Shown here one piece after another: positions 5,910 through 60,661 of a stretch of DNA of 64,000 nucleotides. Numbering within the stretch: the first letter of the stretch is position 1; each line of letters opens with the position of its first letter. The notes under the pieces are model-generated. The model had not been told where the DNA came from. It saw only the letters and a list, made by a program, of their open reading frames with translations, and did not search any database. The translations under genes and the position numbers were made by a program. Source of the stretch: Octopus vulgaris (lineage: Eukaryota); contig OX597815.1 in assembly GCA_951406725.2 (NCBI GenBank), forward strand, positions 164,362,001 to 164,426,000, read 5' to 3'.

Positions 5910-6099
5910 TTCAATAGGTGAATGAATTATCCTATGTTTATCGTCAGCATGGAAAATTCGTTGAACCGATACCAGGGTAGCAAATTCACGTCAGAAACAC
6001 GGTTAAAACTACCTGTTCAAGGGTAGAAACTCCGGGTTCATGTGGTGCAGAAATTTGTGTGTTATAAATGAATAAATGAAAGAATGGAGTCGAACGAAG

Positions 6100-6810
6100 A
6101 TGTTAACAAAATTCCTTTACTCTCGACATATGTTTCGAAGACAACATGGTTTCATTCCAAAGGAATAAAGGGTGCAAGATGCAATCTTCTCATCAGGAAA
6201 GAAAGGGAGCCTGTCTCGGCAACAAGACAAACAAAAATTCCGATGACCGCCTACATGGTAAACAAAACGATAAGTGTTTTTAAAAAAACCGATAGAAGAA
6301 TTGACGTCAAAGTTAGATAGTAGGAAGAGAAGGGTTAAAGGAATGATAGGTAGGGAACCAGTGGAAAGGGAAGGGTACGTTGATTAAGAATGTTCAAAGG
6401 TTTAGGAAAGAATTTCGCTATTGAAGTGGAGTGCACGTTAAGCTAATTGTTCAAACCACGATGCCTATCGTAATCATTTGTATGAGTAAAAAGTATGTTT
6501 CTGCCAGTTTATATTTATACGATTTCTCTATGAGTGTGTTTACAAGGGAAACCTTAGAGAAGAGGATATGGAAGAGCTCAGAGTTGCAAATGTTACAAAA
6601 TCTCCTGCCCTTATCAAAAGGAAAGGATACAGACAGTATGAACCAATCTAACTTGAAATCTATATTATTGTCTTTAAGACGCCAAACTAATTTACTTAGC
6701 CCTGTACTATGTCGTTTTTTACTATCCCTGAATGTTGAATAATGGTTTGAAATTCTCTTGGATAACTGGGAAGTGGACGCTCCTATATAGAAGAAGATAT
6801 TACTTTATAA
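6100..6810 (-). mobile_element. Penelope-like element 3' remnant (GIY-YIG endonuclease C-terminal part, 3' UTR and HHR)
   Basis: Minus frame from about 6804 to 6500 has no ATG, so it is absent from the ORF track: FFYIGASTSQLSKRISNHYSTFRDSKKRHSTGLSKLVWRLKDNNIDFKLDWFILSVSFPFDKGRRFCNICNSELFHIL. This gives YIG, R..H, T.LS..W.LK and CxxC..E motifs of PLE endonucleases. Confidence 0.85.
6114..6207 (-). ncRNA. Type I hammerhead ribozyme associated with Penelope-like element
   Basis: Minus strand reads CCUUUCUUUC-CUGAUGA-GAAGA...UCUUC-GAAAC-AUAU-GUC^-GAGAGUAAAGG: 10-bp stem I with one bulge and one G-U pair, G-C-closed stem II, palindromic stem III (ACAUAUGU). Confidence 0.85.
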
Positions 6811-7514: not shown

Positions 7515-7825
7515 GGACAAAAATCATGGCCACTGGCTTGATGTTTCTTTAATTCATTTTCTACATATGTTTCAGTATTCTACAACACATGACGTCACAT
7601 TATAAATCCAGTTATTAGATATATCCCACAGGGCCAACATGAGAAGGAAATACATCGTCAGACAATTATCTGACGATGTACCTTTTTCAGTTGCCTGACG
7701 ATGTGTTCATGCTGACCCTATAAGGTGAATCTATCGTGCGACGTCGTGTGTTGCAGAATACCGAAACATATGTAACAGATGATTTAAAAGAGTTCCAAGT
7801 CAATGCCAAATTTTTGTTTTTGTCT
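7515..7825. repeat. Imperfect inverted repeat with hammerhead-like cores on both arms
   Basis: Centre TACATCGTCAGA-caatta-TCTGACGATGTA (7651-7680). Both arms read outward CTGACGA...GAATAC(C/T)-GAAACATATGTA. Stem I is not convincingly formed. Confidence 0.55.
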
Positions 7826-21656: not shown

Positions 21657-23214
21657 GTTGAAGGCAGTCAGCCAGAGGGTTCATTAGCACTTTGGACAAA
21701 ATCTTTAACAGCATTTATTCTGGTTTTACATTCTGAGTTTAAACATCACCAATGTCAACTTTGCTTTTATCCTTTTGGAGTCAATAGAATATGTACCAGT
21801 TGAACACTGGGGTTGATGTAATCAACTAGTCCCCTGCTCCAAAATTCCAGGTTTTGTGCATATAATAGAAAGAATTATTATTATAAAGGAGGGAACTTCT
21901 AAGGTCAAATTCCGCCAATGTCAACTTTGCCTGTCATCCTTTCGGGGTCGATAAATTAAGTACCAGTGAAACACTGGGGTCAATGTAATCGACTAGTCCC
22001 CTCCCCAAAAAATTTCAGGCCTTGTGCCTTTAGTAGAAAGGATCTTTAAAGGCAGGATGAAGGTAACAAGCTAATAGAATAGTTAGCATGCCAAGCAAAA
22101 TGCTTAGCAGCAAATTCTGCTGAGGTCAACTTTGCCTTTCATCCTTTCAGGGTCAATAAAATAAGTACCAGCTATGCACTAGGGTCAATGTAGTCAACTT
22201 GCCCCTTCTCCAAAATTATTGGCCTTTTACCAATCGGAAGCTGAAAGAATTATTAAGCACCAGACAAAATGCCTGCTAGTATTTCTTCTGACTGCTTACA
22301 TCCTGAGTTCAAATCCTTCCAAGATCAACTTTGTCTTTCTTCTCTCCATGGTTGATAAAATAAAGTACCAGTCATGTACTGGGGTAGATGGTGTCAACAA
22401 CTCCCCAACCCCTCAAAAATTGTCAGCAACAAGGCAATAAGGTGGCGGAATCATTAGAGTGTTAAAAAAGTGAAAATGCTTTATGGTATTTGTTGTGGCT
22501 CTTTATGTTTTGAGTTCAAATCCCACCAGGGTCAACTTTGCCTTTTGTCTTTTCAGGGTTGATAAAATAAAGTACCAGTCAATCACAGGCATTGACTAAC
22601 TTTCTCCACTCAAAATTGTCAGTTTTGTATCTAAATCAGCTATGACTATCATCAATTTTTGCATCTATTTTTCATGCTAGCAAAGGCTGGCTGGGCCATT
22701 CTTATCCAAGTGAGTTCTTAGTTGAAATTATTACTCTCTTAGACAAGTTAAAGGGTTCATTTTGCTTATACACTCCAATATTATGGTAATAAATAAGGTG
22801 GCAAGATTACAGAATCATTAGCACAAGAAGCAAAATGCTTAGCAGTATTTCATCCATCTTTATGTTCCGAGTTCAAATTCCACTAAGATCGACTTTGCCT
22901 TGCATTCTTTGAGGTCAATAAAATAAATACCAGTTGAACACCGTGGTCAATGTAATCAACTAGAACCCCTTCACCAAAATTTCCGGTTGGGGAAGGATTA
23001 TTATGGTAATAAATAAAATGGCAAACTGGCAGAATCTTTAGCACACCAGATAAAATGCTTAATGACATTTAATCCAGTGTTACATTCTCAGTTCTAATTC
23101 CTCCAAGGTCAACTTTGCCTTCATCCTTTCGGGGTCAATAAAATAAATAACAATTGAGCACTGGAGTCAATGTAATCGACTGGACCCCTTCCTTAAAATT
23201 TCAGGCCTTGTGCC

Positions 23215-30596: not shown

Positions 30597-33112
30597 GAGG
30601 GCAAGCTGGCAGAATTGTTAACATACCAGGCAAAATGCTAAGCAGCATTTCGTCTGTCATTATGTTCTGAGTTCAAATTCCACCGAGATTGGCTTTACTT
30701 TTCCTCCAGTAGGGGTCAACAAAATAAGCACCTGTTGAATACTGGAGGATGTAGTTGACTTGCCTCTCAAAAATTTGAAACCATTATTATTATTTTTATT
30801 ATTGGAAAGTGATGTGATTGGCTAAGAGCTTACAGTTGAAATTGATAGAGATATATACTGCAATCATTGTTTAAGTTTCTTCTGGGGTGTTATAATCAAT
30901 AGCTTAAAAAGATATGACATGATATTTTGAAAGAGAGTTACTGTTGGGGAAATATTTCAGTACATTTGTAAGATCAATGTTACAGGAAAACAGTGTTTTC
31001 ATAATGATACTAGATATTTTTGTAGAGGTGTGGAGTACACTTTTTACATAAGTCTCTTGCCCATCAAAGAACTTGTGTAAGTAAATATGAGTCTGGCAAA
31101 GAGATAAATCAGAAGAGGTGTATTTCTTTGCTAAAATGTTTTATTGTGTGAATAAATTTTCGAGGTAATAAAAAAACAGAAAAACCAATGTGAGTTGTTA
31201 GAGAAACTCATCATTCCTTTATGCGTGTTTAAGAACATTATCTATGTTGTAGAACTTTAAATATTACATACTAAACTAATGAGGTAAAGTAAGTAGCATT
31301 TATTTCAAACAGTTCACAAGGATAAAAAAATATGTATTTGAATTAGTTATTGAGTTCAACAATAATTAAGGATTCTTGTCAAATCTAATCAACCAGTCAT
31401 CATCATCATCATCGTTTAACGTCCGTTCTCCATGCTAGCATGGGTTGGACGGTTCGACCGGGGTCTAGGAAGCCAGAAGGCTGCACCAGGCTCCGGTCTT
31501 ATCTGGCAAAGTTTCTACAGCTGGATGCCTTTCCTAACGCCAACCACTCCGTGAGTGTAGTGGGTGCTTTTTACGTGCCACCTGCACTGGTGCCAGGCGA
31601 GGCTGGCATCGGGCACGGTCGGATTGGTGCATTTTATGGAAGCCAGTCAAGGCGGCACTGGCTTCGGCTACGATTCGGATGGTGCTTTTTACGTGCCACC
31701 GACACGGAAGCCAGTCGAGGCGGCAAGATGACTCTTAAACTGCATTCTGATAATTTTAAACTAGAGCATGTGAAGAGATAAAACATTGACATGACAGAGT
31801 ATTTGAACAAATTTCTTTTGATGGTAATAGGTCAGAAAATCCGTAGCTAATGAAACTAGAGCACACAGCACATACATTATGATTTATCAACTGTGATGCT
31901 ATTACAAAAACTATTACGAAGAATGATTAGATCAAAATATTGAAGTACATGATTAATTAAGTTTCTCCAGAAAGCTGGTAACACAGGTGTAGAGTTTTCA
32001 TTAATGTAAGTTTATAGAGAAAATGTGTGTGCTGAATCAAACTTGGCGCTTAAGCACACGAATGTCATTTTACAGAAGTATTACATGGCTGTACAAGAGT
32101 AGTCTCCCTTCCACCTCTTTCAATCGGACTCTACCCGTTTCTTTTTATCTTTTTTACTCAAGTTTTCCTTTCAAACTAGGTTCTTTTTCTCAACACATTT
32201 ATGCTTCATTATGTATGCACACTAATATCTTACACCCAGTGAAGCATACTCAGTTTATTTCTTTCCAGCTGTCACTTATCCTTCACGTTTAATGCCTATA
32301 ATTCATTGTACTACATACAGAATTATTGTACAATTTATCCTTCACTTCAAGAGAGATTCCCTTTGTGCCAGCCCCATGACATTTCTCTGCCTCATTCTTT
32401 CTCTGGCTACATTGAAATACACTGATATTTAAGCTCTTGATAGGAAGCCATTAACTACTTCTACAAACCTTCCAAGTGTTTGAATTATCGCGCGCACACA
32501 CACACACATACATAGGATTATAGGAGTTCCACATGGTAGCAATAAATATGTAAATATGTTTATAAACTGCCAACAAGTGTTGTAATAACGACTTGCTACA
32601 ATATCTTGCAATCTTCTATAAATTTGATGAGGTGGCAGCTATCAAAGAGCAGGAAAATAAGTACACCAAAACACATTTTCGACTGTTCGCTGTTGGACAC
32701 ATGTACCTGAGGACACAATTCGGTTCTTAAGGTTCTCTTCAATGCTGCAAAGAACTAAGTTGCTCTAATCAACAGTCACAGAGGAAACTACAGAAGAAAC
32801 CAGCAAAAGATTTCATTGCCTTTGTTTGTCCAGGAAAGCAGATCTGCTAGAGAAAGAAAGTTCCTATGAACAATGAAAACTGGAATGGCTTTCAGGAGGT
32901 GGCTGCAGAATTACCAATATACCAAAGATTCTTCTCCATGCCAGTTATGAAGAAACCAGATACTATCACCTGCTGATGAGAGGAAAAGAAAATGATAAAG
33001 CTGGGCAAACTGATGTCTTCCATGAAGATAATATGAACAATGTTGTATGCTTGTGTATGTATATGTATATAAGTGTGTGTGTGTGTATACACATACTTGT
33101 ACACACAAATAC

Positions 33113-35565
33113 ATGCCACTATGAAAGGTTGCTGAATAAAGAAAATGAATGGGATAAAGAGAGTCTGCCGAATGTTGACCCAACAGAGGGACCAGCTATC
33201 CGAGTTGATAGTTCCGTGGTAGCTAAGGCAATTAGAAGCATGAAGACAGGGAAAGCCCCAGGCCCATCAGGAATTACTGCAGAGATGCTCAAAATATCTG
33301 GCAGTGTCGGCTATAACCTAGTCACCCGTATAGTCAACCAGGTGATACACGAAGGAGTCATACCCAATGACTGGTGCAGCAGCATACTAGTCAACTGCTA
33401 CAAAGGTAAAGGTGATGCCCTAGATACAAATAATTACAGAGGTATCAAGCTGTTGGATCAAGTAATGAAGGTTACGGAGAGGGTCATAGCCCAACTAATT
33501 AGAGAGAGAGTTAGTTTAGATGAGATGCAGTTTGGGTTCATGCCAGGGAAAAGTACCACTGATGCTATATTCCTGGTAAGGCAGCTGCAGGAGAAATACC
33601 TAGCCAAAGATAAGCCCCTGTACCTGGCTTTCGTTGACATGGAGAAAGCTTTTGATAGGGTCCCCCGATCCCTTATCTGGTGGTCAATGAGGAAACTAGG
33701 GATAGATGAATGGCTGGTGAGGACTGTGCAAGCCATGTACAGAGATGCCGTAAGTAAGGTTAGGGTTGGCAACATGTACACAGAAGAATTCAAAGTAGAG
33801 GTTGGGGTCCACCAGGGTTCAGTACTCAGCCCCCTCCTATTTATCATAGTCCTCCAGGCAATTACGGAGGAATTCAAGACAGGTTGTCCCTGGGAGCTCC
33901 TCTACGCTGACGACCTTGCTCTTATTGCTGAGTCACTATCAGAACTGGAGGAGAAGTTCCAGGTGTGGAAGGAGGGTTTAGAATCGAGGGGCCTTAGAGT
34001 CAACCTAGCTAAAACCAAAGTACTAATAAGTAGGAAGGTAGACAATCCACAAATGTCTTCAGGAAGATGGCCCTGCTCGATCTGTAGAAAAGGTGTAGGT
34101 AGAAACTCTATAAGATGTACCCAGGGTAAGCTATGGACACATAAGAGGTGCAGCAATGTCAAAGGTAGGCTAACTGGGAAGATAGTTTTTGTATGTGGCA
34201 GATGCTCGGGAGCATTAACCTCCGAAAATCTGCAGAAAACAACTTCCGTCACTTTCTAGGGGGAAAAACTAGAAGTAGTTGATAGCTTCCGTTATCTAGG
34301 TGACCAAGTCAGTAGTGGGGGTGGGTGCGCTGAAAGTGTAACTGCTAGAATAAGAATAGCCTGGGCAAAGTTTAGGGAGCTCTTATCTCTGCTGGTGACT
34401 AAAGGCCTCTCGCTCAGAGTAAAAAGCAGACTGTATGATGCGTGTGTACGAACAGCCATGCTACATGGCAGTGAAACATGGGCCGTGACTGCTGAGGACA
34501 TGCGTAAGCTCGTGAGGAATGAAGCCAGTATGCTCCGATGGATGTGTAATGTCAGTGTACATACTCGACAGAGCGTTAGCACCTTGAGAGAAATGTTGTA
34601 CCTAAGAAGCATCAGTTGTGGTGTGCAAGAGAGACGATTGCGCTGGTATGGTCATGTGGCGAGAATGGATGAAGATAGGTGTGTGAGAAAGTGCCAATCC
34701 CTAGCAGTTGAGGGAACCCGTGGAAGAGGTAGACCCAGGAAAACCTGGGACGAGGTGGTGAAGCACGACCTTCGAACTTTAGGCCTCACTGAGGAAATGA
34801 CCAGCGACCGAGACCTTTGGAAATATTCTGTACGTGAGAAGACCAGGCAGGACAAGTGAGCCCAGCCCACTTATGAATGCCTTTCCTCCCTTGGACACAA
34901 AGACCTGTTGAGGCAAGCGAAGTCGATATAGAACCTCATCCGACGACAGGCACCCATGCCAACCCCCTTTACTTGCGAAGACATGTTGGGGCAAGCGAAA
35001 TCGAAATCGAAACCGAATTGAACCAGCCAGGATCCCTGGTCTGGTGGCACGTAAAAAGCACTATCCGACTCGTGGCTGATGCCAGCGCTGCCTCCACTGG
35101 CTTCCGTGCCGGTGGCACGTAAAATACTCCAATCCGACCGTACGACAGGCACCCATGCCAAACCCCTTTGCTTGTGAAGACATGTTGGGGCAAGCGAAAT
35201 CGAAATCGAATTGAACCAGCCAGGATCCCTGGTCTGGTGGTACGTAAAAAGCACAATCCGACTCGTGGCCGATGCCAGCACCACCTCGACTGGCTTCCGT
35301 GCCGGTGGCACATAAAATACACCAATCTGACCATGGCCATTGCCAGCCTCGCCTGGCACCTGTGCAGGTGGCACATAAAAAGCACCCACTACACTCACGG
35401 AGTGGTTGGCGTTAGGAAGGGCATCCAGCTGTAGAAACATTGCCAGATAAGGCTGGAGTCCTGGTGCAGCCTTCTGGCTTCCCAGATCCCCGGTCGAACC
35501 GTCCAACCCATGCTAGCATGGAGAACGGACGTTAAACGATGATGATGATGATGATGATGATGATG
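33113..35565 (+). mobile_element. RTE-clade LINE, 5'-truncated, young copy (RT, PHD-like finger, C-terminal domain, 3' UTR, (GAT)n tail)
   Basis: Motifs KAPGPSG, NYRGIKLL, QFGF..GKSTTDA, AFVDMEKAFD, GVHQGSVLSP, LYADD and RLRWYGHV..M...RGRGRPRKTW. ORFs 32976-34259 and 34395-34859 share one frame, broken only by TAG at 34257-34259. Confidence 0.95.
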
Positions 35566-52379: not shown

Positions 52380-54560
52380 GTTCCCCACCACGTCCCTTTC
52401 CCAGTTTTCAGAGTTGGCACTCTCAATGTAGGCACATTGAAAGGTAGGTCTAGCAAGATTATTGAGATACTTGAACGAAGGTGTGTTGATAGATGTTGCA
52501 TGCAAGAGGTAAGGTAGAGAGGAGCTTCAGCCAGGTTCTTCACAGGCAAAATACAGGTATAAAATCTCCTGAGAAGGTAACAGTGATAGGGTAGGTGACA
52601 TAGGCATACTTCTTGCAGAGACGTGGGAGGATAAGGTCATAGAGGTAGCCAGAATAGATGACAGAGTGCTTAAGTTTAGGTTAGTCTTACAAAACAGTAT
52701 AGTGACAATTATCTCGCCTATGCCCCTCAAGCAGGCCTACAAAATGAACTGAAGGGCCACTTTTATGGCATTTTTCTGCTGGTTACCTCAAAGACAAGTG
52801 ACAATGATCTCCCCTTTATGGCTGGGGATTTCAATGCGCATGTCAGACGGCTGTCTGGTATCTTACATGGGGTGCATGGAGGCCATGGATTTTGCTCTTG
52901 AAACTACTGGAGTTCTGTGATGCAAATCACCTTTTGATCTGTAAAATAAACTTCAGTAAGCCAGCCAGCCACCTGATAACCTACCAATCAGGTGTCTGTG
53001 CTCGCCAGATCGATTACATTCTCACCAAACAGCATGATGCATGGTTGCTCCTAAATACAAAGACCCTTCCTGGTGAAGAATTTACCTCCTAGCATAGACC
53101 AGTCATTTGTGACTTTAGACTCCAAACCAGAAGGATGCCAAGAAGTAAACCAATCTGGGAGAGAAGGATTTGGAATCTTAAGGACCTTCAATATGGTCAG
53201 AGATTTAGGGACATCCTAATTGAGAAATTCAATAAAAATTCAATCGACAGGTCCATGGTAGATAAAGCAATTAAGGATATGAAGACAGGAAAAGCCCCTG
53301 GCTCATCAGGAATCTCCACTGAGATGCTTAAAACATCTGGCAGTATGGGTTATGGTCTAGTCATACATATTGTAAATCAGGCAGTTCACGAAGAGTAGTC
53401 AACTGCTACAAAGGTAACAGTAATGCCTAAGATAGAAATAATTACAGAAGTATCAAATTGCTGGATCAGGTGATGAAAGTTACAGAGAATCATAGCCCAG
53501 CTAATTAAGGAGAGAGTTAGCTTAGATGAGATGCAGTTTGGTTATGTGTCTGGGAAAAGCACCATTGATGCTATATTTCTGTTGTTAGGGTTAGGGTTAG
53601 AGAAATACAAAGCCAAAGATAAACTCTGTACTTGGCCTTTGTTGATTTAGAGAAAACCTTTGACAGGGTCCACCAATCCTTTATCTGGTGATCAATGTGG
53701 AAACTAAGGACAGACAAGTGGTTGGTGAGAGCTGTAGCAAGTTATGTACATGGATGCTACCAGTAAGGTGAGGGTTGGCAATGAGTACAGCGAAGAATTC
53801 AGGGTACAAGTAGGGGTTCACCAAGGATCAGTGCTCAGCCCCCTTTTGTTCATTATAGTCCTCCAGGCAATAACAGAGGCATTCAAAACAGGTTGCCCCT
53901 TGCTCTTATAGCTGAACCAATACCTGAACTAGAGAAGTTCCAAATATGGAAGTAAGGTCTAGAATCAAAGGGCCTTAAAGTTAACCTAACAAAAACCAAA
54001 GTCTTAATGAGTAGGAAGGCAAACAAATCACAAATCTCTTCAGGTAGAGGGCCCTGCTCAATCTGTAGAAAAAGTGTAGGTAGAATCCCTATAAGATGCA
54101 CCCAGTGTAAGCTTTGGACACATAAAAGGTGCAGCAATATCAGAGGAAGATTAACAGGGAAACTAGCATTCATGTAGGAAGATGCACAAGTACAATAAAC
54201 ACTGAAAATGGGCAGAAAATAGACTCTATCAGCTGCCAGGTGGGTAAGCTAGAGGTAGTAGATAACTTCCGTTATCTAGGTGACCAAGTTAGTAGTGGGG
54301 GTGGATGCTCCAAGAGCATAGCTATGAGAATAAGATTAGGATAGGCAAAGTTTAGAGAGCTCCTACCCCTGCTGGCAACAAAGGGCCTCTCTCTCTCAAA
54401 GTGAAAGACAGATTGTTTGATGCCTGTGTGCAAACAGCTATGCTGCATGGTAGTGAAACATGGGCTGTGACAGCCAAGGATATGTGTAGGCTTGAGAGAA
54501 ATGAAGCCAGTATGCTTCGCTGGATGTGCAATGTCAGTGTGCATGTTTGACAGTGTCGAA
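52380..54560 (+). mobile_element. Degenerate RTE LINE (APE endonuclease and RT), antisense in a C3-like intron
   Basis: GTLNVGTLKGR...MQEVR, GDFNAHV, QIDYIL, and RT segments similar to 33.2-34.6 kb, with many stops, frameshifts and internal deletions. A further fragment lies at about 56185-56330. Confidence 0.9.
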
Positions 54561-54589
54561 TGAACATGAATGAATGTGAAGGCCATTCA

Positions 54590-54960
54590 AAGTAGACTTC
54601 ACACATGATTCCAGCAAGACAAACAATGCAGTTGCTACGGAAGTGCTTTGGAGAGAGAATAATCTCCCACTACGGCAATGTCAACTGGCCTTCACGTTCC
54701 CCAGACTTGACAAGCCAGATTTTTTTATGGGGATACCTGAAAGAGAGGGTTTACGTCTACAAACCAGAGACCCTGATGCAACTGAAGGAGAACATCAATA
54801 GAGAAATCAGAGAAGTGGGGTCTGAAACTCATGAGGATGTTATGGTGCAAGTCTTGGAAAGAGTACGGGCGTATGAAGCTGAAGATGGATGCCGTTTAAG
54901 CAATGTCATTTTGCATATGTGATGCAAAGATGTTGCAAAATTTAACATGCGCATATTAAT
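54590..54960 (+). mobile_element. Tc1/mariner-superfamily (rosa/maT-like) transposase C-terminal fragment
   Basis: ERIIS...NWPSRSPDLT..FLWGYLKERVY..KP.T...LK..I motif in ORF 54605-54922. Confidence 0.85.
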
Positions 54961-57032: not shown

Positions 57033-57734
57033 CGGGATGGTTCAGTTTCCATCTACCAAATCCACTCACGAGGCTTTGGTCAGCCTGAGACTATAGTAGA
57101 AGACACTTGCCCAAGGTGTCACACAGTGGGACTGAACCTGGAACCATATGGTTGCTAAGCAAGCTACTTACCACACAGCCACTTCTGTGGCTATGTTAAT
57201 ATTAATTTCTTCTCACTTCAGATTTAAGTGTCATGTTTTGTTCTGAACATAAGCAACAACATAAAATACATTGATTGCTATATTCTTTTATTCTTTTACT
57301 CATTTCAAGGCTTTGATTGACCCGAAGCTATAGTATAAGACAATTGTCCAAGGTACCACACAGTGGGAGTGAACCTAGAACCATGTGGTTGGGAAGCAAG
57401 CTTCTTACTACACAGCCAAGCCTGTACCTACATATATCCAATATTCTTTTAGCAGTAAGGTGGCGAGCTGGCAGAAACATTAGCACGCCGGGCGAAATGC
57501 TTAGCAGTATTTTGTCTGTCTTTACATTCTGAGTTCAAATTCTGCTGAGGTCGACTTTGCCTTTTGTTCTTTCACAGTCGATAAATTAAGTACCAGTTGT
57601 GTACTGTGGTTGATCTAATTGACTGGCCCCCAACCCCAAAATTTTGGGCCTTGTACCTAGAATAGAAAAGAATATTCTTTTAATGATTAATGAACCAGAT
57701 CAGTCAAAGGAAAATAAAAGAAAGACTAACTCAC

Positions 57735-57830: not shown

Positions 57831-57949
57831 CTAACATATAAATTAATATGAAAAATACTTAAATTTACATTTATTAAAAAAAAGCAACAAAAAATTCTCA
57901 TAACTCTTCCAACTCCCTAAGTACAACAATGAGGACTAAAATTATCATA

Positions 57950-58795
57950 TATGAGGTTGTATAAAAAGTTCCTCGAACTAGTTCTGTAGCATGCCAACAG
58001 ATGGCAGCACATGGTTGCGTGTGCAGTTAGAGCTAGCAGTGACTTTCAGGAAGCTGTGTGCCGAGTAATGTTATTGTGTTTACTTTGCAAGTTGTGAAAT
58101 TTATGGCTTTGTGATCAAATGTATGCTGTAGTCAGCGATTCTGACATAGACACGAAGTTAGATCAATGTGAAATTTTGCGTTAAACTTGGGAAGTCTGCT
58201 ACAAGGACATTGAGCATGCTTTGGCAAGCTTAGAGTCAATAGGTCATACGCAATGTTTCAAGTGACACAGAAGAATGTCCCTGCAAGAGCTACCACAAGC
58301 TTTACCCCTGCAAATGTGGTATTGTGCATCGAGAATTTGTCACCCAGGGCCAGACTGTCAATTGACCGTTCAAAAATTTGGACCTGGAGATCTCCATTTC
58401 CAGCGACTTTGAGGGCCACCTCCCAGTGGTGTCGGGCATCAACAAAGAGCCCTCGACTACAACAAGACGACCAAAGTTTTTTTTTTCCAAGGTCTGGGGT
58501 CTCCCGCCCCTTATCCCTTGACCATCACCCAATCGCCCTTATCTGTCTTGTTGCTTAACAACAACAACGACTGTCAATTGAGAATTCTACTATGACGTTT
58601 TGAAACATTTGAAGGACATTTGGTAAAAGTGACTGGATCTGTGAAGCATGAAGAATTGGATTCTTCACGACGACAAAGCACCCTGTCACCAAGCCCTCTT
58701 CACTTGTGAGTTTCTCGTCAAAAACAACATGGCATCACTTCTGCACCTGCCCTATTCACCAGATTTAGCACCTGTGCACTTCCATTTCTTCCTAG
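57950..58795 (+). mobile_element. Degenerate mariner element interrupted by an (AAC)n-tailed insertion
   Basis: TATGAGG start, KFCVKLGKSAT, WILHDDKAPCH and HLPYSPDLAP motifs. Confidence 0.8.
58366..58568 (+). mobile_element. About 200-bp (AAC)n-tailed retroposon with 13-bp target-site duplication
   Basis: GACTGTCAATTGA is duplicated at 58353-58365 and 58569-58581. Homologous to 1-355 on the opposite strand. Confidence 0.85.
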
Positions 58796-59020
58796 CATGA
58801 TACAAAATATGACAAGGCTGGTCCTTTGAAATACAGGTACTGTCCATTTTTGCCAGCTGAGTGCACTGGAGGAATGTGAAATAAAATATCTTGCTCAAGA
58901 ACACAACACACCACTTAGTATTGAACTCATGACCTTTTGATCATGAGCTGAATGTCCTAACCACTAACCTACCCATCTTTACTATGTTTTTATGAGTATG
59001 TGTGTTAGTGTATGTATATA

Positions 59021-59069
<49 letters not shown>

Positions 59070-59454
59070 CAAATGATTAATAACAGACGATGGATAATTG
59101 TCAGCTCATAATGCGTGCTTTGGACCAGCCCCTAGGCTCCTAGGGTTGGTTTTTCTCTGTGTATATGACTGGAATATCCTATTTGATATTTACCAACCAT
59201 AGGCCAGAACCCTGGTTTATCCAACCCTACCTGGTGCATCAAGTACTTGATTCTATCTGAATCCCTATTTTACTATACATATATAGAGAGAATAGTTGTA
59301 TACTGTCAACTTAATGTGACAGTCCCATGAAGGGAATCACACCACTGCCATTTAGCCCTAGGAAGCATCAACACTTCCTGTTGACCTTGACACATTTCCT
59401 GTGTCCTTACGTTTACAAGGGGGAGACAAGCACCTCCACCCAGCTAAGCCTGCA

Positions 59455-59497
59455 TCCAGAGACTAGTTTCTGAGTTTTTACTCATCATCAGTCTGGA
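59455..59497 (-). ncRNA. Minimal type I hammerhead ribozyme
   Basis: Minus strand reads UCCAGA-CUGAUGA-UGAGU(AAAA)ACUCA-GAAAC-UA-GUC^-UCUGGA: intact core, 6-bp stem I, 5-bp stem II and palindromic stem III (ACUAGU). Confidence 0.9.
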
Positions 59498-59994
59498 GTA
59501 GCATGGCCTGCTAGTTGGAGATGCCTGTCTAGCCTTTGTAAACATATAAGAATTCCAGTGAAATAAATCCACTGATTACAAAAATAGAAATATTACATTT
59601 CTAAATATCCCAGAGAGATACAAGCAGTAGTGGTATGATAGAGTAGTTGTAGAGCATCATCATCATCATCATTTAATGTCCATTGTCCATGCTAGCATGG
59701 GTTGTGCAGTTTGACCAGGAGTGATAAGCTGAAGGGCTGCACCAGACTCCAGTTTGATTTAGTATGGTTTCTACGGCTGGAGGTCTTTCCTAATGCCAAC
59801 TACTCCAACAGTGTAAAGGGTGCCTTTACATGCCACTGGAACAGGTGCCAGTTGCATGACACCAGTATCTCTCATGACTATGGTTTTACTTGGCTTAATG
59901 GGTCTTCTACTCAAGCACAGCATATTGCCAAAGGTCTCAGTCTTTTGTCGTTGCCTCTGTGAGGCCCAACGCTCAACAAGAATGCGGAAAATGA

Positions 59995-60415
59995 AAGGTG
60001 GCGAGCTGGCAGAATCGTTAGCACACTGGGTGAAATGCTTAGAGGTATTTCGTCTGCCGTTACGTTCTGAGTTCAAATTCCGATGAGGTCGACTTTGCCT
60101 TTCATCCTTTCGGGGTCGATAAATTAAATTCCAGTTACACACTGGGGTCGATGTAATCGACTTGATCCATTTGTCTGTCCTTGTTTGTCCCCTCTGTGTT
60201 TAGCCCCTTGTGGGTAGTAAAGCAATAGGTATTTCGTCTGCCGTTACATTCTGAGTTCAAATTCAACCAAGATCGACTTTGCCTTTCATCCTTTCGGGGT
60301 CGATAAATTAAGTACCAGTTATGCACTGGGGTTGATGCAATTAACTTAATCCCGTTGTCTGTCCTTGTTTGTCCCCTCTATGTTTAGCCCCTTGTGGGCA
60401 ATAAAGAAATAAGAA
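59995..60415 (+). mobile_element. tRNA-derived SINE family B, internally duplicated (others about 890-1130-, 9365-9755-, 13195-13770+, cluster 21660-23210+, 30145-30340+, 30595-30780+, 56510-56720-, 57455-57670+)
   Basis: Recurrent AAGGCGGCGAGCTGGCAGAA...GAGTTCAAATTCC (B box)...GCCTTTCATCCTTTCGGGGTCGATAAATTAAGTACCAG. Confidence 0.9.
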
Positions 60416-60661
60416 TGTGGAAAGTGAAACTAGCTGCCTAATATCATAATATATGTCCGTGTCAATTGATGTGATTGTTTATTTTTAGAATGACATTGTA
60501 TGGTAGGTGTGAGGAACCAGATCTGGCCAGTTTGAACATAAAACAGGCAGAATATTTTGGCTGGATATGGCTGGTTTAAATGCTAAAGGGTGAAATAAAT
60601 TAAATAAAGGGTTAAATAAAATTATATAAAACCTTATAAGAAATATTAAAATCTTACTTAC

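What the first reader, a model, noticed from the sequence alone, without database searches (positions are those of the whole stretch)
59455..59497. Near-perfect minimal hammerhead ribozyme, sense-oriented inside an intron of the C3-like gene
Seen: the minus strand reads UCCAGA CUGAUGA UGAGU-AAAA-ACUCA GAAAC UA GUC^ UCUGGA. All core nucleotides are present, stems I and II are fully Watson-Crick, and stem I seems extendable through bulged pairs in about 59430-59520. Stem III is the palindrome ACUAGU with only a 2-nt loop. Known: minimal type I HHRs with palindromic stem III are typical of Penelope-like elements and metazoan retrozymes and cleave mainly as dimers. Inference: it sits in a non-coding ~260-bp unit (about 59300-59560) on the same strand as the host pre-mRNA (intron 57831-60661), so it is transcribed whenever the gene is. 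It may mark an undescribed cephalopod retrozyme or non-autonomous PLE family, and could cut the intron when two transcripts pair. Stem II is closed by U-A rather than the usual G-C.
Basis: partly seen in the sequence, partly recalled or inferred. Interest (0 to 1): 0.85.

Follow-up and report, generated by a model that had tools for sequence, protein, structure and literature searches.

The report
Penelope-mobilised hammerhead retrozyme, lone intronic copy
The predicted self-cutting RNA motif is real, but it sits in one stray copy of a 351-base, protein-free repeat with thousands of related copies in this genome, likely spread by Penelope-type jumping genes, so it is probably a passenger in the intron rather than a control switch for the gene.

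Summary
The hammerhead motif is present as described at 59455-59497 (minus strand), sense to a thioester-protein-family gene and inside the GT-AG intron 57831-60661. It is not a solitary intronic ribozyme. It lies in a 351-nt ORF-less monomer (59651-59301, plus a 15-nt wrap) of a dispersed repeat: 2,552 hits to one 20-mer against 0 for the control. Related 339-360-nt monomers show compensatory changes in helices I and II, a C3-G8 to U3-A8 core swap, and a helix III that stays palindromic through several different sequences. Insertions follow Penelope-like (PLE) rules: 103 of 124 segment 3' ends fall at two fixed sites, and 20 of 21 classifiable inverted two-arm insertions pair one long with one short end, as do 13 of 14 in an autonomous PLE of the same genome. 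Verdict: a new member of the known metazoan non-LTR retrozymes (non-autonomous PLE parasites). The window copy is old (3.7% from its subfamily majority), carries a single hammerhead, has two rare loop-II changes and is predicted to misfold. Intron cleavage by two paired transcripts is unlikely. Cleavage and circular RNA are untested.

The parts
59455..59497 (-). Type I hammerhead motif; predicted cleavage after GUC, between 59461 and 59460
   Evidence: Sequence; family alignment; covariation
59462..59467 (-). Helix III palindrome (6 nt): too short to fold within one copy, predicted to pair between two copies
   Evidence: Sequence; palindromic state kept across subfamilies
59471..59484 (-). Helix II and loop II; positions 59480 and 59476 differ from the subfamily majority, and the 10.1/11.1 pair is variable in the family
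59424..59530 (-). Long extension of helix I (rod-like hairpin carrying the hammerhead at its tip)
   Evidence: z -7.1; -10.1 for 59250-59600
59301..59651 (-). One full 351-nt retrozyme monomer, no ORF, GC 0.42
   Evidence: Period 351; circular fold -136.1 kcal/mol, z -10.5 against 30 shuffles; 2,552 genome hits to an internal 20-mer
59286..59300 (-). Wrap into a second monomer, ending at the family's 'short' 3' end beside a short TA-rich run
59585..59636 (-). Segment that forms the optional roughly 55-nt 'tail' in other copies (between the short and the long 3' end)
57831..60661 (-). Host intron (GT...AG) between two small cysteine-rich exons of a likely thioester-protein-family gene
   Evidence: Sequence; exon frames; TED exons upstream
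59655..59852 (.). Unrelated very-high-copy repeat whose (GAT)n run abuts the 5' end of the element
   Evidence: Hits in many loci
5910..6804 (-). 3' fragment of an abundant autonomous PLE (GIY-YIG endonuclease 6454-6804; own hammerhead 6196-6125; short end 6068; long end about 5910). Used as the comparison for insertion rules; no sequence similarity to the retrozyme

Best explanation
The motif is the hammerhead of one old, solitary copy of a 351-nt protein-free repeat family, a retrozyme that was likely copied into the intron by Penelope-like (PLE) proteins and is probably an inert passenger there. Shown: repeat family, monomer length, absence of an ORF, covarying hammerhead, PLE-type insertion pattern, a single hammerhead at this locus. 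Inferred life cycle: rare head-to-tail source loci are transcribed; two neighbouring hammerheads pair their palindromic helix III and cut out a monomer, which would be ligated to a rod-like circle; a PLE reverse transcriptase-endonuclease nicks AT-rich or microsatellite DNA on both strands and starts reverse transcription at two internal sites about 175 and 230 nt downstream of the cleavage site; it runs through the ribozyme on a circular or multimeric template and leaves 5'-truncated single arms, partial tandems, or two arms joined back to back. The window copy is one such arm with the short end. Lacking a partner hammerhead in cis, it would cleave the pre-mRNA rarely or never.
For: Copy number: 1,819 first-look candidates, best 40 at 92-100% identity; 2,552 against 0 control. 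Head-to-tail closure on itself at 351 nt; tandem monomers of 339-360 nt at 62-93% identity to the window monomer where they align, including a trimer. Selection on the ribozyme in source lineages: 18 of 20 named pairs show two-sided changes in 21 sequences, 0 of 500 shuffles reach this and slid controls fall to 26-47% paired; C3-G8 is C-G in 11, U-A in 8 and broken in 2. The U3-A8 pattern has 3,206 hits against 222 control; among the 100 listed, 52 of 58 two-base helix III inserts are self-complementary, in all four possible forms (hand count; copies are not independent). PLE rules: 103 of 124 3' ends at two sites (15% expected); 34 of 77 loci have 5'-to-5' inverted arms and none 3'-to-3'; 20 of 21 classifiable pairs are long+short (p 8e-6). 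The autonomous PLE shows 44 of 46 ends at two sites and 13 of 14 two-arm loci long+short. This matches the PLE tail and inversion (PMC8557442) and the two internal start sites on both strands (PMC11167929). 50 of 124 segments read through the cleavage site, 9 exceed one monomer, and only 3 5' ends lie within about 5 nt of the cut. The window copy is 3.7% from the majority and sampled arms 3.4-10%; its monomer fold traps the core (pair probability 0.95).
Against: No cleavage or circular RNA was observed. The partner PLE was not identified: the abundant autonomous PLE shares no sequence with the monomer and its tail is about 155 nt against about 55 nt. Long tandem arrays, typical of described retrozymes, were not seen: 25 direct-tandem pattern hits genome-wide, 7 of them an unrelated minisatellite. 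Rfam finds no hammerhead. Microsatellite preference is modest: 42 of 103 ends against 859 of 3,080 local controls. The read-through data fit uncleaved multimers as well as circles. Rare changes are somewhat fewer in the core than elsewhere (1.8% against 3.5%, p 0.05, 32 unbiased copies; 1.3% against 1.9%, p 0.14, all 83), which leaves room for some constraint after insertion.
Confidence: 0.72

Rival explanations
1. Same element and same PLE mobilisation, but cleavage and circles play no part in copying. Uncleaved multimeric transcripts are the template, and the hammerhead cuts only with protein help or serves as a binding scaffold.
For: In the anole Poseidon system the hammerhead cleaves only with protein, and its cleavage is not needed for insertion (PMC11167929). 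There is no pile-up of 5' ends at the cut. This subfamily has a mismatched 10.1/11.1 pair and a core-trapping fold. Only 1 of 9 Xenopus retrozyme dimers cleaved in vitro.
Against: The compensatory C3-G8/U3-A8 swap and the maintained helix III palindrome show selection on catalytic geometry and on pairing of two hammerheads. Mussel, coral and axolotl retrozymes of similar size accumulate as circles (PMC7229834).
Confidence: 0.18
2. The unit is only the terminal repeat (pLTR) of an autonomous PLE whose full-length copies were not sampled.
For: PLE insertions are mostly 5'-truncated and carry hammerheads in their terminal repeats (PMC4209133; PMC8557442). Only about 200 loci were inspected, out of thousands.
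Against: The 3' end of one unit joins the start of the next at 339-360 nt in every tandem examined, and the tail continues into the monomer body rather than into an ORF. No PLE ORF was found joined to the unit; the one PLE directly abutting a copy in sense order was an older element interrupted by it.
Confidence: 0.05
3. The copy has been co-opted by the host: it cuts the intron when two pre-mRNAs, or a pre-mRNA and a retrozyme RNA, pair, and so tunes splicing or output of the thioester-protein gene.
For: Sense orientation, intact core, intact 6-bp helix I and intact palindrome. Domesticated intronic hammerheads exist in amniotes (PMC6155905).
Against: An intact core is common in the family (64 of 83; 21 of 32 unbiased). 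The whole monomer, not just the ribozyme, is equally well preserved. Two rare changes alter loop II. No partner was found in cis, and the dimer is not favoured over misfolded monomers.
Confidence: 0.05

Closest known systems
Metazoan non-LTR retrozymes (Cervera and de la Pena 2020, PMC7229834), especially the mussel 350-390-bp and axolotl 330/350-bp families
   Same: Type I hammerhead in an ORF-less repeat of about 350 bp, GC under 50%, strongly self-paired monomer, short palindromic helix III; a mismatch at the base of helix II as in axolotl HHR_Amex2.
   Different: Mostly dispersed, 5'-truncated and inverted copies rather than long tandem arrays; helix III has a 2-nt, not 4-nt, loop in this subfamily; circular RNA not shown; no sequence comparison with those families was made.
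Non-LTR retrozymes as non-autonomous PLEs (Li, Clavereau and Pollet, bioRxiv 10.64898/2026.07.22.740005)
   Same: Co-occurs with autonomous PLEs; dispersed monomers; intronic copies are common.
   Different: That study covers vertebrates, insects and a coral (0 hits for octopus, cephalopod or mollus* in its main text) and argues from co-occurrence and pLTR phylogeny. Here the evidence is the insertion pattern itself (two fixed ends, long+short inverted arms), and no pLTR homologue was found.
Penelope-like elements (Craig et al. 2021, PMC8557442; Frangieh et al. 2024, PMC11167929)
   Same: Partial tandems, inverted 5'-truncated arm, optional tail at one end only, AT-rich or microsatellite targets, type I hammerhead.
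   Different: No RT or GIY-YIG ORF; tail about 55 nt rather than 30-40 nt; hammerhead of canonical rather than minimal geometry.
Domesticated intronic hammerheads of amniotes (RECK, CTCL, DTNB; PMC6155905)
   Same: Type I hammerhead on the sense strand of an intron.
   Different: Those are conserved at one locus across species; this one is embedded in an intact copy of a multi-thousand-copy mobile family.

Membership tests
Type I hammerhead ribozyme | Conserved core (CUGANGA, GAAA, NUH) in correct order and spacing | tested here: met
   intact in 64 of 83 copies
Type I hammerhead ribozyme | Helices I and II supported by covariation, with the ends in helix I | tested here: met
   All 6 helix I and 4 helix II pairs have two-sided changes; 0 of 500 shuffles (related sequences, hand-named structure)
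Type I hammerhead ribozyme | Helix III able to form within one molecule | tested here: not met
   2 bp with a 2-nt loop; palindromic, so able to form only between two copies
Type I hammerhead ribozyme | Match to an Rfam hammerhead model | tested here: not met
   No hit in the window or in 8 related loci
Type I hammerhead ribozyme | Self-cleavage after NUH | not testable with these tools
   Needs in vitro transcription
Minimal PLE hammerhead (min-HHR, PMC4209133) | Long helix II with an unpaired base before G10.1-C11.1, short helix I, helix III absent or vestigial | tested here: not met
   14 nt between the core boxes (4+6+4), with a direct G10.1-C11.1 pair in distant subfamilies; 6-bp helix I. 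Only the vestigial palindromic helix III is shared.
Metazoan non-LTR retrozyme | Type I hammerhead in a 150-450-bp non-coding repeat with GC under 50% | tested here: met
   351 nt, GC 0.42, no ORF
Metazoan non-LTR retrozyme | Head-to-tail tandem copies, each with a hammerhead | tested here: met
   Dimers and one trimer exist but are rare; the window copy is a monomer
Metazoan non-LTR retrozyme | Highly self-paired monomer | tested here: met
   Window monomer z -10.5; other monomers shown range from -1.5 to -6.8
Metazoan non-LTR retrozyme | Target-site duplications longer than 4 bp | tested here: inconclusive
   Of 37 single-arm loci a few show clear 9-12-bp repeats; most are short or masked by microsatellites. 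None is evident for the window copy.
Metazoan non-LTR retrozyme | Expressed as circular and linear monomeric RNA | not testable with these tools
   Only assembled contigs were available
Autonomous Penelope-like element | RT plus GIY-YIG ORF | tested here: not met
   The monomer closes on itself at 351 nt; no joined ORF
PLE-mobilised element | 5' truncation, partial tandems, inverted 5' arm, optional tail at one end | tested here: met
   same rule in the autonomous PLE
PLE-mobilised element | Sequence shared with the terminal repeat of a partner PLE | tested here: inconclusive
   None with the abundant PLE family or one other PLE remnant; other PLE families were not surveyed
Domesticated intronic hammerhead | Ribozyme conserved at one orthologous locus, apart from its mobile element | not testable with these tools
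   No related genomes are held; the copy is embedded in a full mobile unit

The most novel reading that the evidence does not exclude
This genome hosts a superfamily of thousands of viroid-sized circular RNA parasites of Penelope proteins whose palindromic helix III acts as a kin-recognition code: each subfamily pairs, and so cleaves, only with RNAs carrying the same palindrome. Abundant retrozyme RNA could then complete and fire lone sense-strand intronic copies like this one in trans, making them cut sites in host pre-mRNAs. The long+short two-arm rule would record a dimeric PLE protein priming both DNA strands from two fixed sites on the retrozyme RNA.
Probability: 0.1. Interest if true: 0.75.

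Novelty: new member of a known kind. Interest (0 to 1): 0.38.

Why it matters
The single locus is ordinary. The family has modest value in two ways. First, which machinery moves animal retrozymes was left as a suggestion (PMC7229834) and then argued from co-occurrence and phylogeny (2026 preprint). Here the insertions themselves obey the same two-end, long+short rule as an autonomous PLE in the same genome, which is direct genomic evidence and names the RNA sites to test in the existing in vitro PLE assay. Second, the superfamily is a natural mutagenesis series of a dimeric hammerhead (core-pair swap, several alternative palindromes, decay of the 10.1/11.1 pair) that current Rfam models miss.

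Tried and rejected
Chance motif: rejected. C/D snoRNA: two weak Rfam hits (E 0.44 and 3.3, far below cut-off), dismissed. Chimeric retrozyme-plus-PLE insertion at L116: it looked like direct proof of a shared machine but was rejected, because both flanks belong to one older PLE ORF that the retrozyme interrupted. Search for a partner PLE by sequence: negative for the abundant family and a PLE remnant about 180 kb upstream; 5' flanks of 37 single-arm loci gave no abutting PLE arm. Same template for the two arms: arms are closer to each other than to other loci (median rank 0.11, 32 pairs), which shows the same subfamily, not the same molecule. Expression: no RNA holder listed. Four runs only guessed to be RNA were laid as contigs; they cover the unit and show head-to-tail joints, which genomic tandems also have, so nothing is concluded. 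Pfam on four single host exons gave nothing useful; an NTR family search did not hit the window; one exon found no PDB match. The PLE half was spoiled by a (TA)n run in the reference; it is discarded and was redone. Rows dropped before counts: 6 overlapping loci; all but the first pair of the segmentally repeated locus L120; 3 reverse-strand self-matches of the hairpin (86 to 83 rows). Earlier scan findings: three look-ups returned nothing. The paper on dimer-cleaving PLE hammerheads by Lunse et al. was not held.

Full report
Observation. The motif is in the sequence as described: on the minus strand, helix I 59497-59492 and 59460-59455, core 59491-59485, helix II region 59484-59471, GAAAC-UA-GUC 59470-59461. 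It sits at the tip of a long hairpin (z -7.1, 0 of 200 shuffles; z -10.1 for 59250-59600). Rfam returned no hammerhead hit at gathering or E-value thresholds, in the window or in 8 related loci. A core-plus-palindrome pattern hits the own genome 974 times against 15 for the control. Hammerhead numbering below is the standard one (established knowledge).

Host context. The GT at 60661 and AG at 57832-57831 flank an intron between two small cysteine-rich exons; two more candidate exons follow at about 48.9 and 45.5 kb. TED_complement exons lie 37 and 43 kb beyond the window on the same strand (2 of 21 genome matches). Their best PDB matches are alpha-2-macroglobulin and CD109 (E 5e-6 and 3e-5), with C3d weaker. 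So a thioester-protein-family gene is likely; 'C3' and the joining of these exons are inference. The window exons alone gave no informative Pfam or PDB match.

It is a mobile repeat. A 161-base query gave 1,819 first-look candidates in the 2.8-Gb genome; the 40 scored are 92-100% identical. An internal 20-mer has 2,552 hits with up to one mismatch against 0 control (includes sister subfamilies and double arms). Homology runs from 59651 to 59286. The unit closes head-to-tail with period 351, so the window holds one monomer plus 15 nt. A pattern for two palindromes 325-350 bases apart gave 25 hits against 1 control; 7 are an unrelated minisatellite, and 14 of the 20 fetched loci (13 places, one a trimer) belong to this superfamily. 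Extracted monomers are 339-360 nt, and those aligning to the window monomer are 62-93% identical. No PLE-type ORF continuous with a copy was seen in L031-L050 or L186-L210, or by tblastn over the fetched loci.

The ribozyme has been selected in source lineages. In 21 hammerheads chosen across subfamilies (alignment A1), 18 of 20 named pairs have two-sided changes, 82.6% of cells pair, and 0 of 500 shuffles reach this; slid controls pair at 26-47%. The structure was named by me and the sequences are related, so these are not probabilities. The C3-G8 core pair is C-G in 11, U-A in 8 and broken in 2 of 21. A U3-A8 pattern has 3,206 hits against 222 control. In its 100 listed hits, 52 of 58 two-base helix III inserts are self-complementary (all four forms), as are 15 of 20 four-base and 5 of 19 six-base inserts, and 3 are odd-length (hand count; copies are not independent). 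Several distant subfamilies have a 4-bp helix II opened by G10.1-C11.1 and a six-base loop. The resemblance of loop II and the helix I bulge to the Schistosoma tertiary contact is recalled, not tested.

Insertions follow PLE rules. In 77 loci taken in genome order from the 20-mer list (83 fetched, 6 overlapping dropped), 124 segments have 3' ends at monomer positions -10 to 21 (58) or 55 to 75 (45), against 15% expected. 34 of 77 loci have two arms joined 5'-to-5' and none 3'-to-3'. Of 21 pairs with both ends classifiable, 20 are long+short (p 8e-6); 13 pairs had an unclassifiable end. An abundant autonomous PLE, found through a GIY-YIG fragment at window 6454-6804 (15,686 candidates; Pfam GIY-YIG only E 0.046; RT-like upstream sequence by eye), carries its own palindromic-helix-III hammerhead. 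It obeys the same rule: 44 of 46 ends at two sites and 13 of 14 two-arm loci long+short. Craig et al. describe the inverted arm and the tail at one end (PMC8557442), and Frangieh et al. trace the tail to two internal reverse-transcription starts with both strands cleaved and extended (PMC11167929). 42 of 103 ends abut a microsatellite against 859 of 3,080 local controls (p 0.005). 50 of 124 segments read through the cleavage site, 9 exceed one monomer, and 3 start within about 5 nt of it, so the template was circular or multimeric rather than a cleaved linear monomer (inference).

The window copy. It is 3.7% from its subfamily majority; 32 sampled arms are 3.4-10%, so no recent activity was seen in the sample. 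Two of its 13 differences lie in loop II, giving a loop found in 1 of 83 copies. Its lowest-energy fold pairs C3-U4-G5 with the helix III and cleavage-site bases (probability 0.95); the double-hammerhead dimer scores -43.0 kcal/mol against -43.4 for two misfolded monomers and -45.8 for an inactive cofold (tertiary contacts are not modelled). No second retrozyme-type hammerhead was found on the minus strand in the window or the next 200 kb. An intact core is common (64 of 83). Against my reading, rare changes are somewhat fewer in the core than outside it (p 0.05 in 32 unbiased copies, p 0.14 in all 83).

Mechanism. Shown: family, monomer, covariation, insertion rules, solitary state. Inferred: dimeric cleavage of tandem transcripts, ligation to circles, PLE-driven priming at two sites, and inertness of this copy. 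The main rival is that uncleaved multimers are the template; in the anole system cleavage is protein-assisted and dispensable, and 1 of 9 Xenopus dimers cleaved.

Comparison and novelty. The element meets the sequence-level definition of a metazoan non-LTR retrozyme (PMC7229834) and works like a non-autonomous PLE, as a 2026 preprint already proposes for vertebrates, where 42-44% of Xenopus copies overlap introns. Five searches found no description of this family or of any cephalopod retrozyme; the giant squid genome paper lists 235 Rfam hammerhead hits. Repeat databases were not searchable, and the PMC7229834 supplement, one PMC4209133 supplement and the preprint's supplements could not be read; these may list mollusc families. 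What I saw of each paper: PMC4209133 parts 1-2 of 4 and supplement passages; PMC7229834 parts 2-4 of 6; PMC8557442 passages and section 11; PMC11167929 parts 1-2 of 4; the preprint parts 1-3 of 5 and a term search; PMC6962438, PMC6765202 and PMC6155905 passages only; Lunse et al. nothing (cited within PMC6765202).

Verdict. Observation confirmed; interpretation partly supported; new member of a known kind; interest 0.38. The value lies in the family-level evidence, not in this intron.

Noticed in passing
L215:2810-2995 (G000:C2:164468810-164468995, minus), 43 kb upstream of the window: The TED exon of the presumed host gene reads GSGEQ where thioester proteins have GCGEQ, so this paralogue appears to lack the thioester cysteine.
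   Followed up: partly
window 5910-6804, minus: 3' part of a very abundant autonomous PLE with a C-terminal GIY-YIG domain, an asparagine-rich linker, a tail of about 155 nt and a hammerhead with a long branched helix II (about 60 nt) and an 8-nt palindromic helix III; clade not determined.
   Followed up: partly
window near 7695 (plus) and 36506 (plus): Two further hammerhead-like motifs with long helix II regions; the first has the same 8-nt palindrome as the PLE hammerhead.
   Followed up: no
L034 and L036 (G000:C1:46.29 Mb and 125.06 Mb): A separate family of 315-316-bp direct tandems with the same 6-nt palindromic hammerhead but AT-rich, weakly folding monomers (z 0.4 and -1.4) and no BLAST similarity to this superfamily.
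   Followed up: partly
L031, L032, L038-L044: Other old hammerhead families with longer helix II and the same palindrome, with no PLE ORF recognised within 4.5 kb.
   Followed up: partly
L094, L137, L141: A close subfamily has a 10-nt palindrome in helix III that could fold within one molecule (3 bp plus a 4-nt loop) and a shortened loop II.
   Followed up: partly
unbiased loci L076-L158: 5' truncation points cluster near monomer positions 138-152, 221-260 and 281-300; some may be alignment edges between subfamilies, others may mark hairpins that stall reverse transcription.
   Followed up: no
L120 (G000:C1:150.06 Mb): A segment of about 900 bp containing an inverted two-arm insertion is repeated in tandem about five times.
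   Followed up: no
window 32877-34856, plus: Reverse-transcriptase ORF (Pfam RVT_1, E 2.5e-32) of a LINE-like element, with similar fragments near 53093-54669.
   Followed up: no
window 22779-23202, 34943-35332, 60043-60411: Two-copy tandem repeats of 220, 193 and 184 bp; the last lies in the same intron and resembles a common short repeat also seen near 57540-57620.
   Followed up: no
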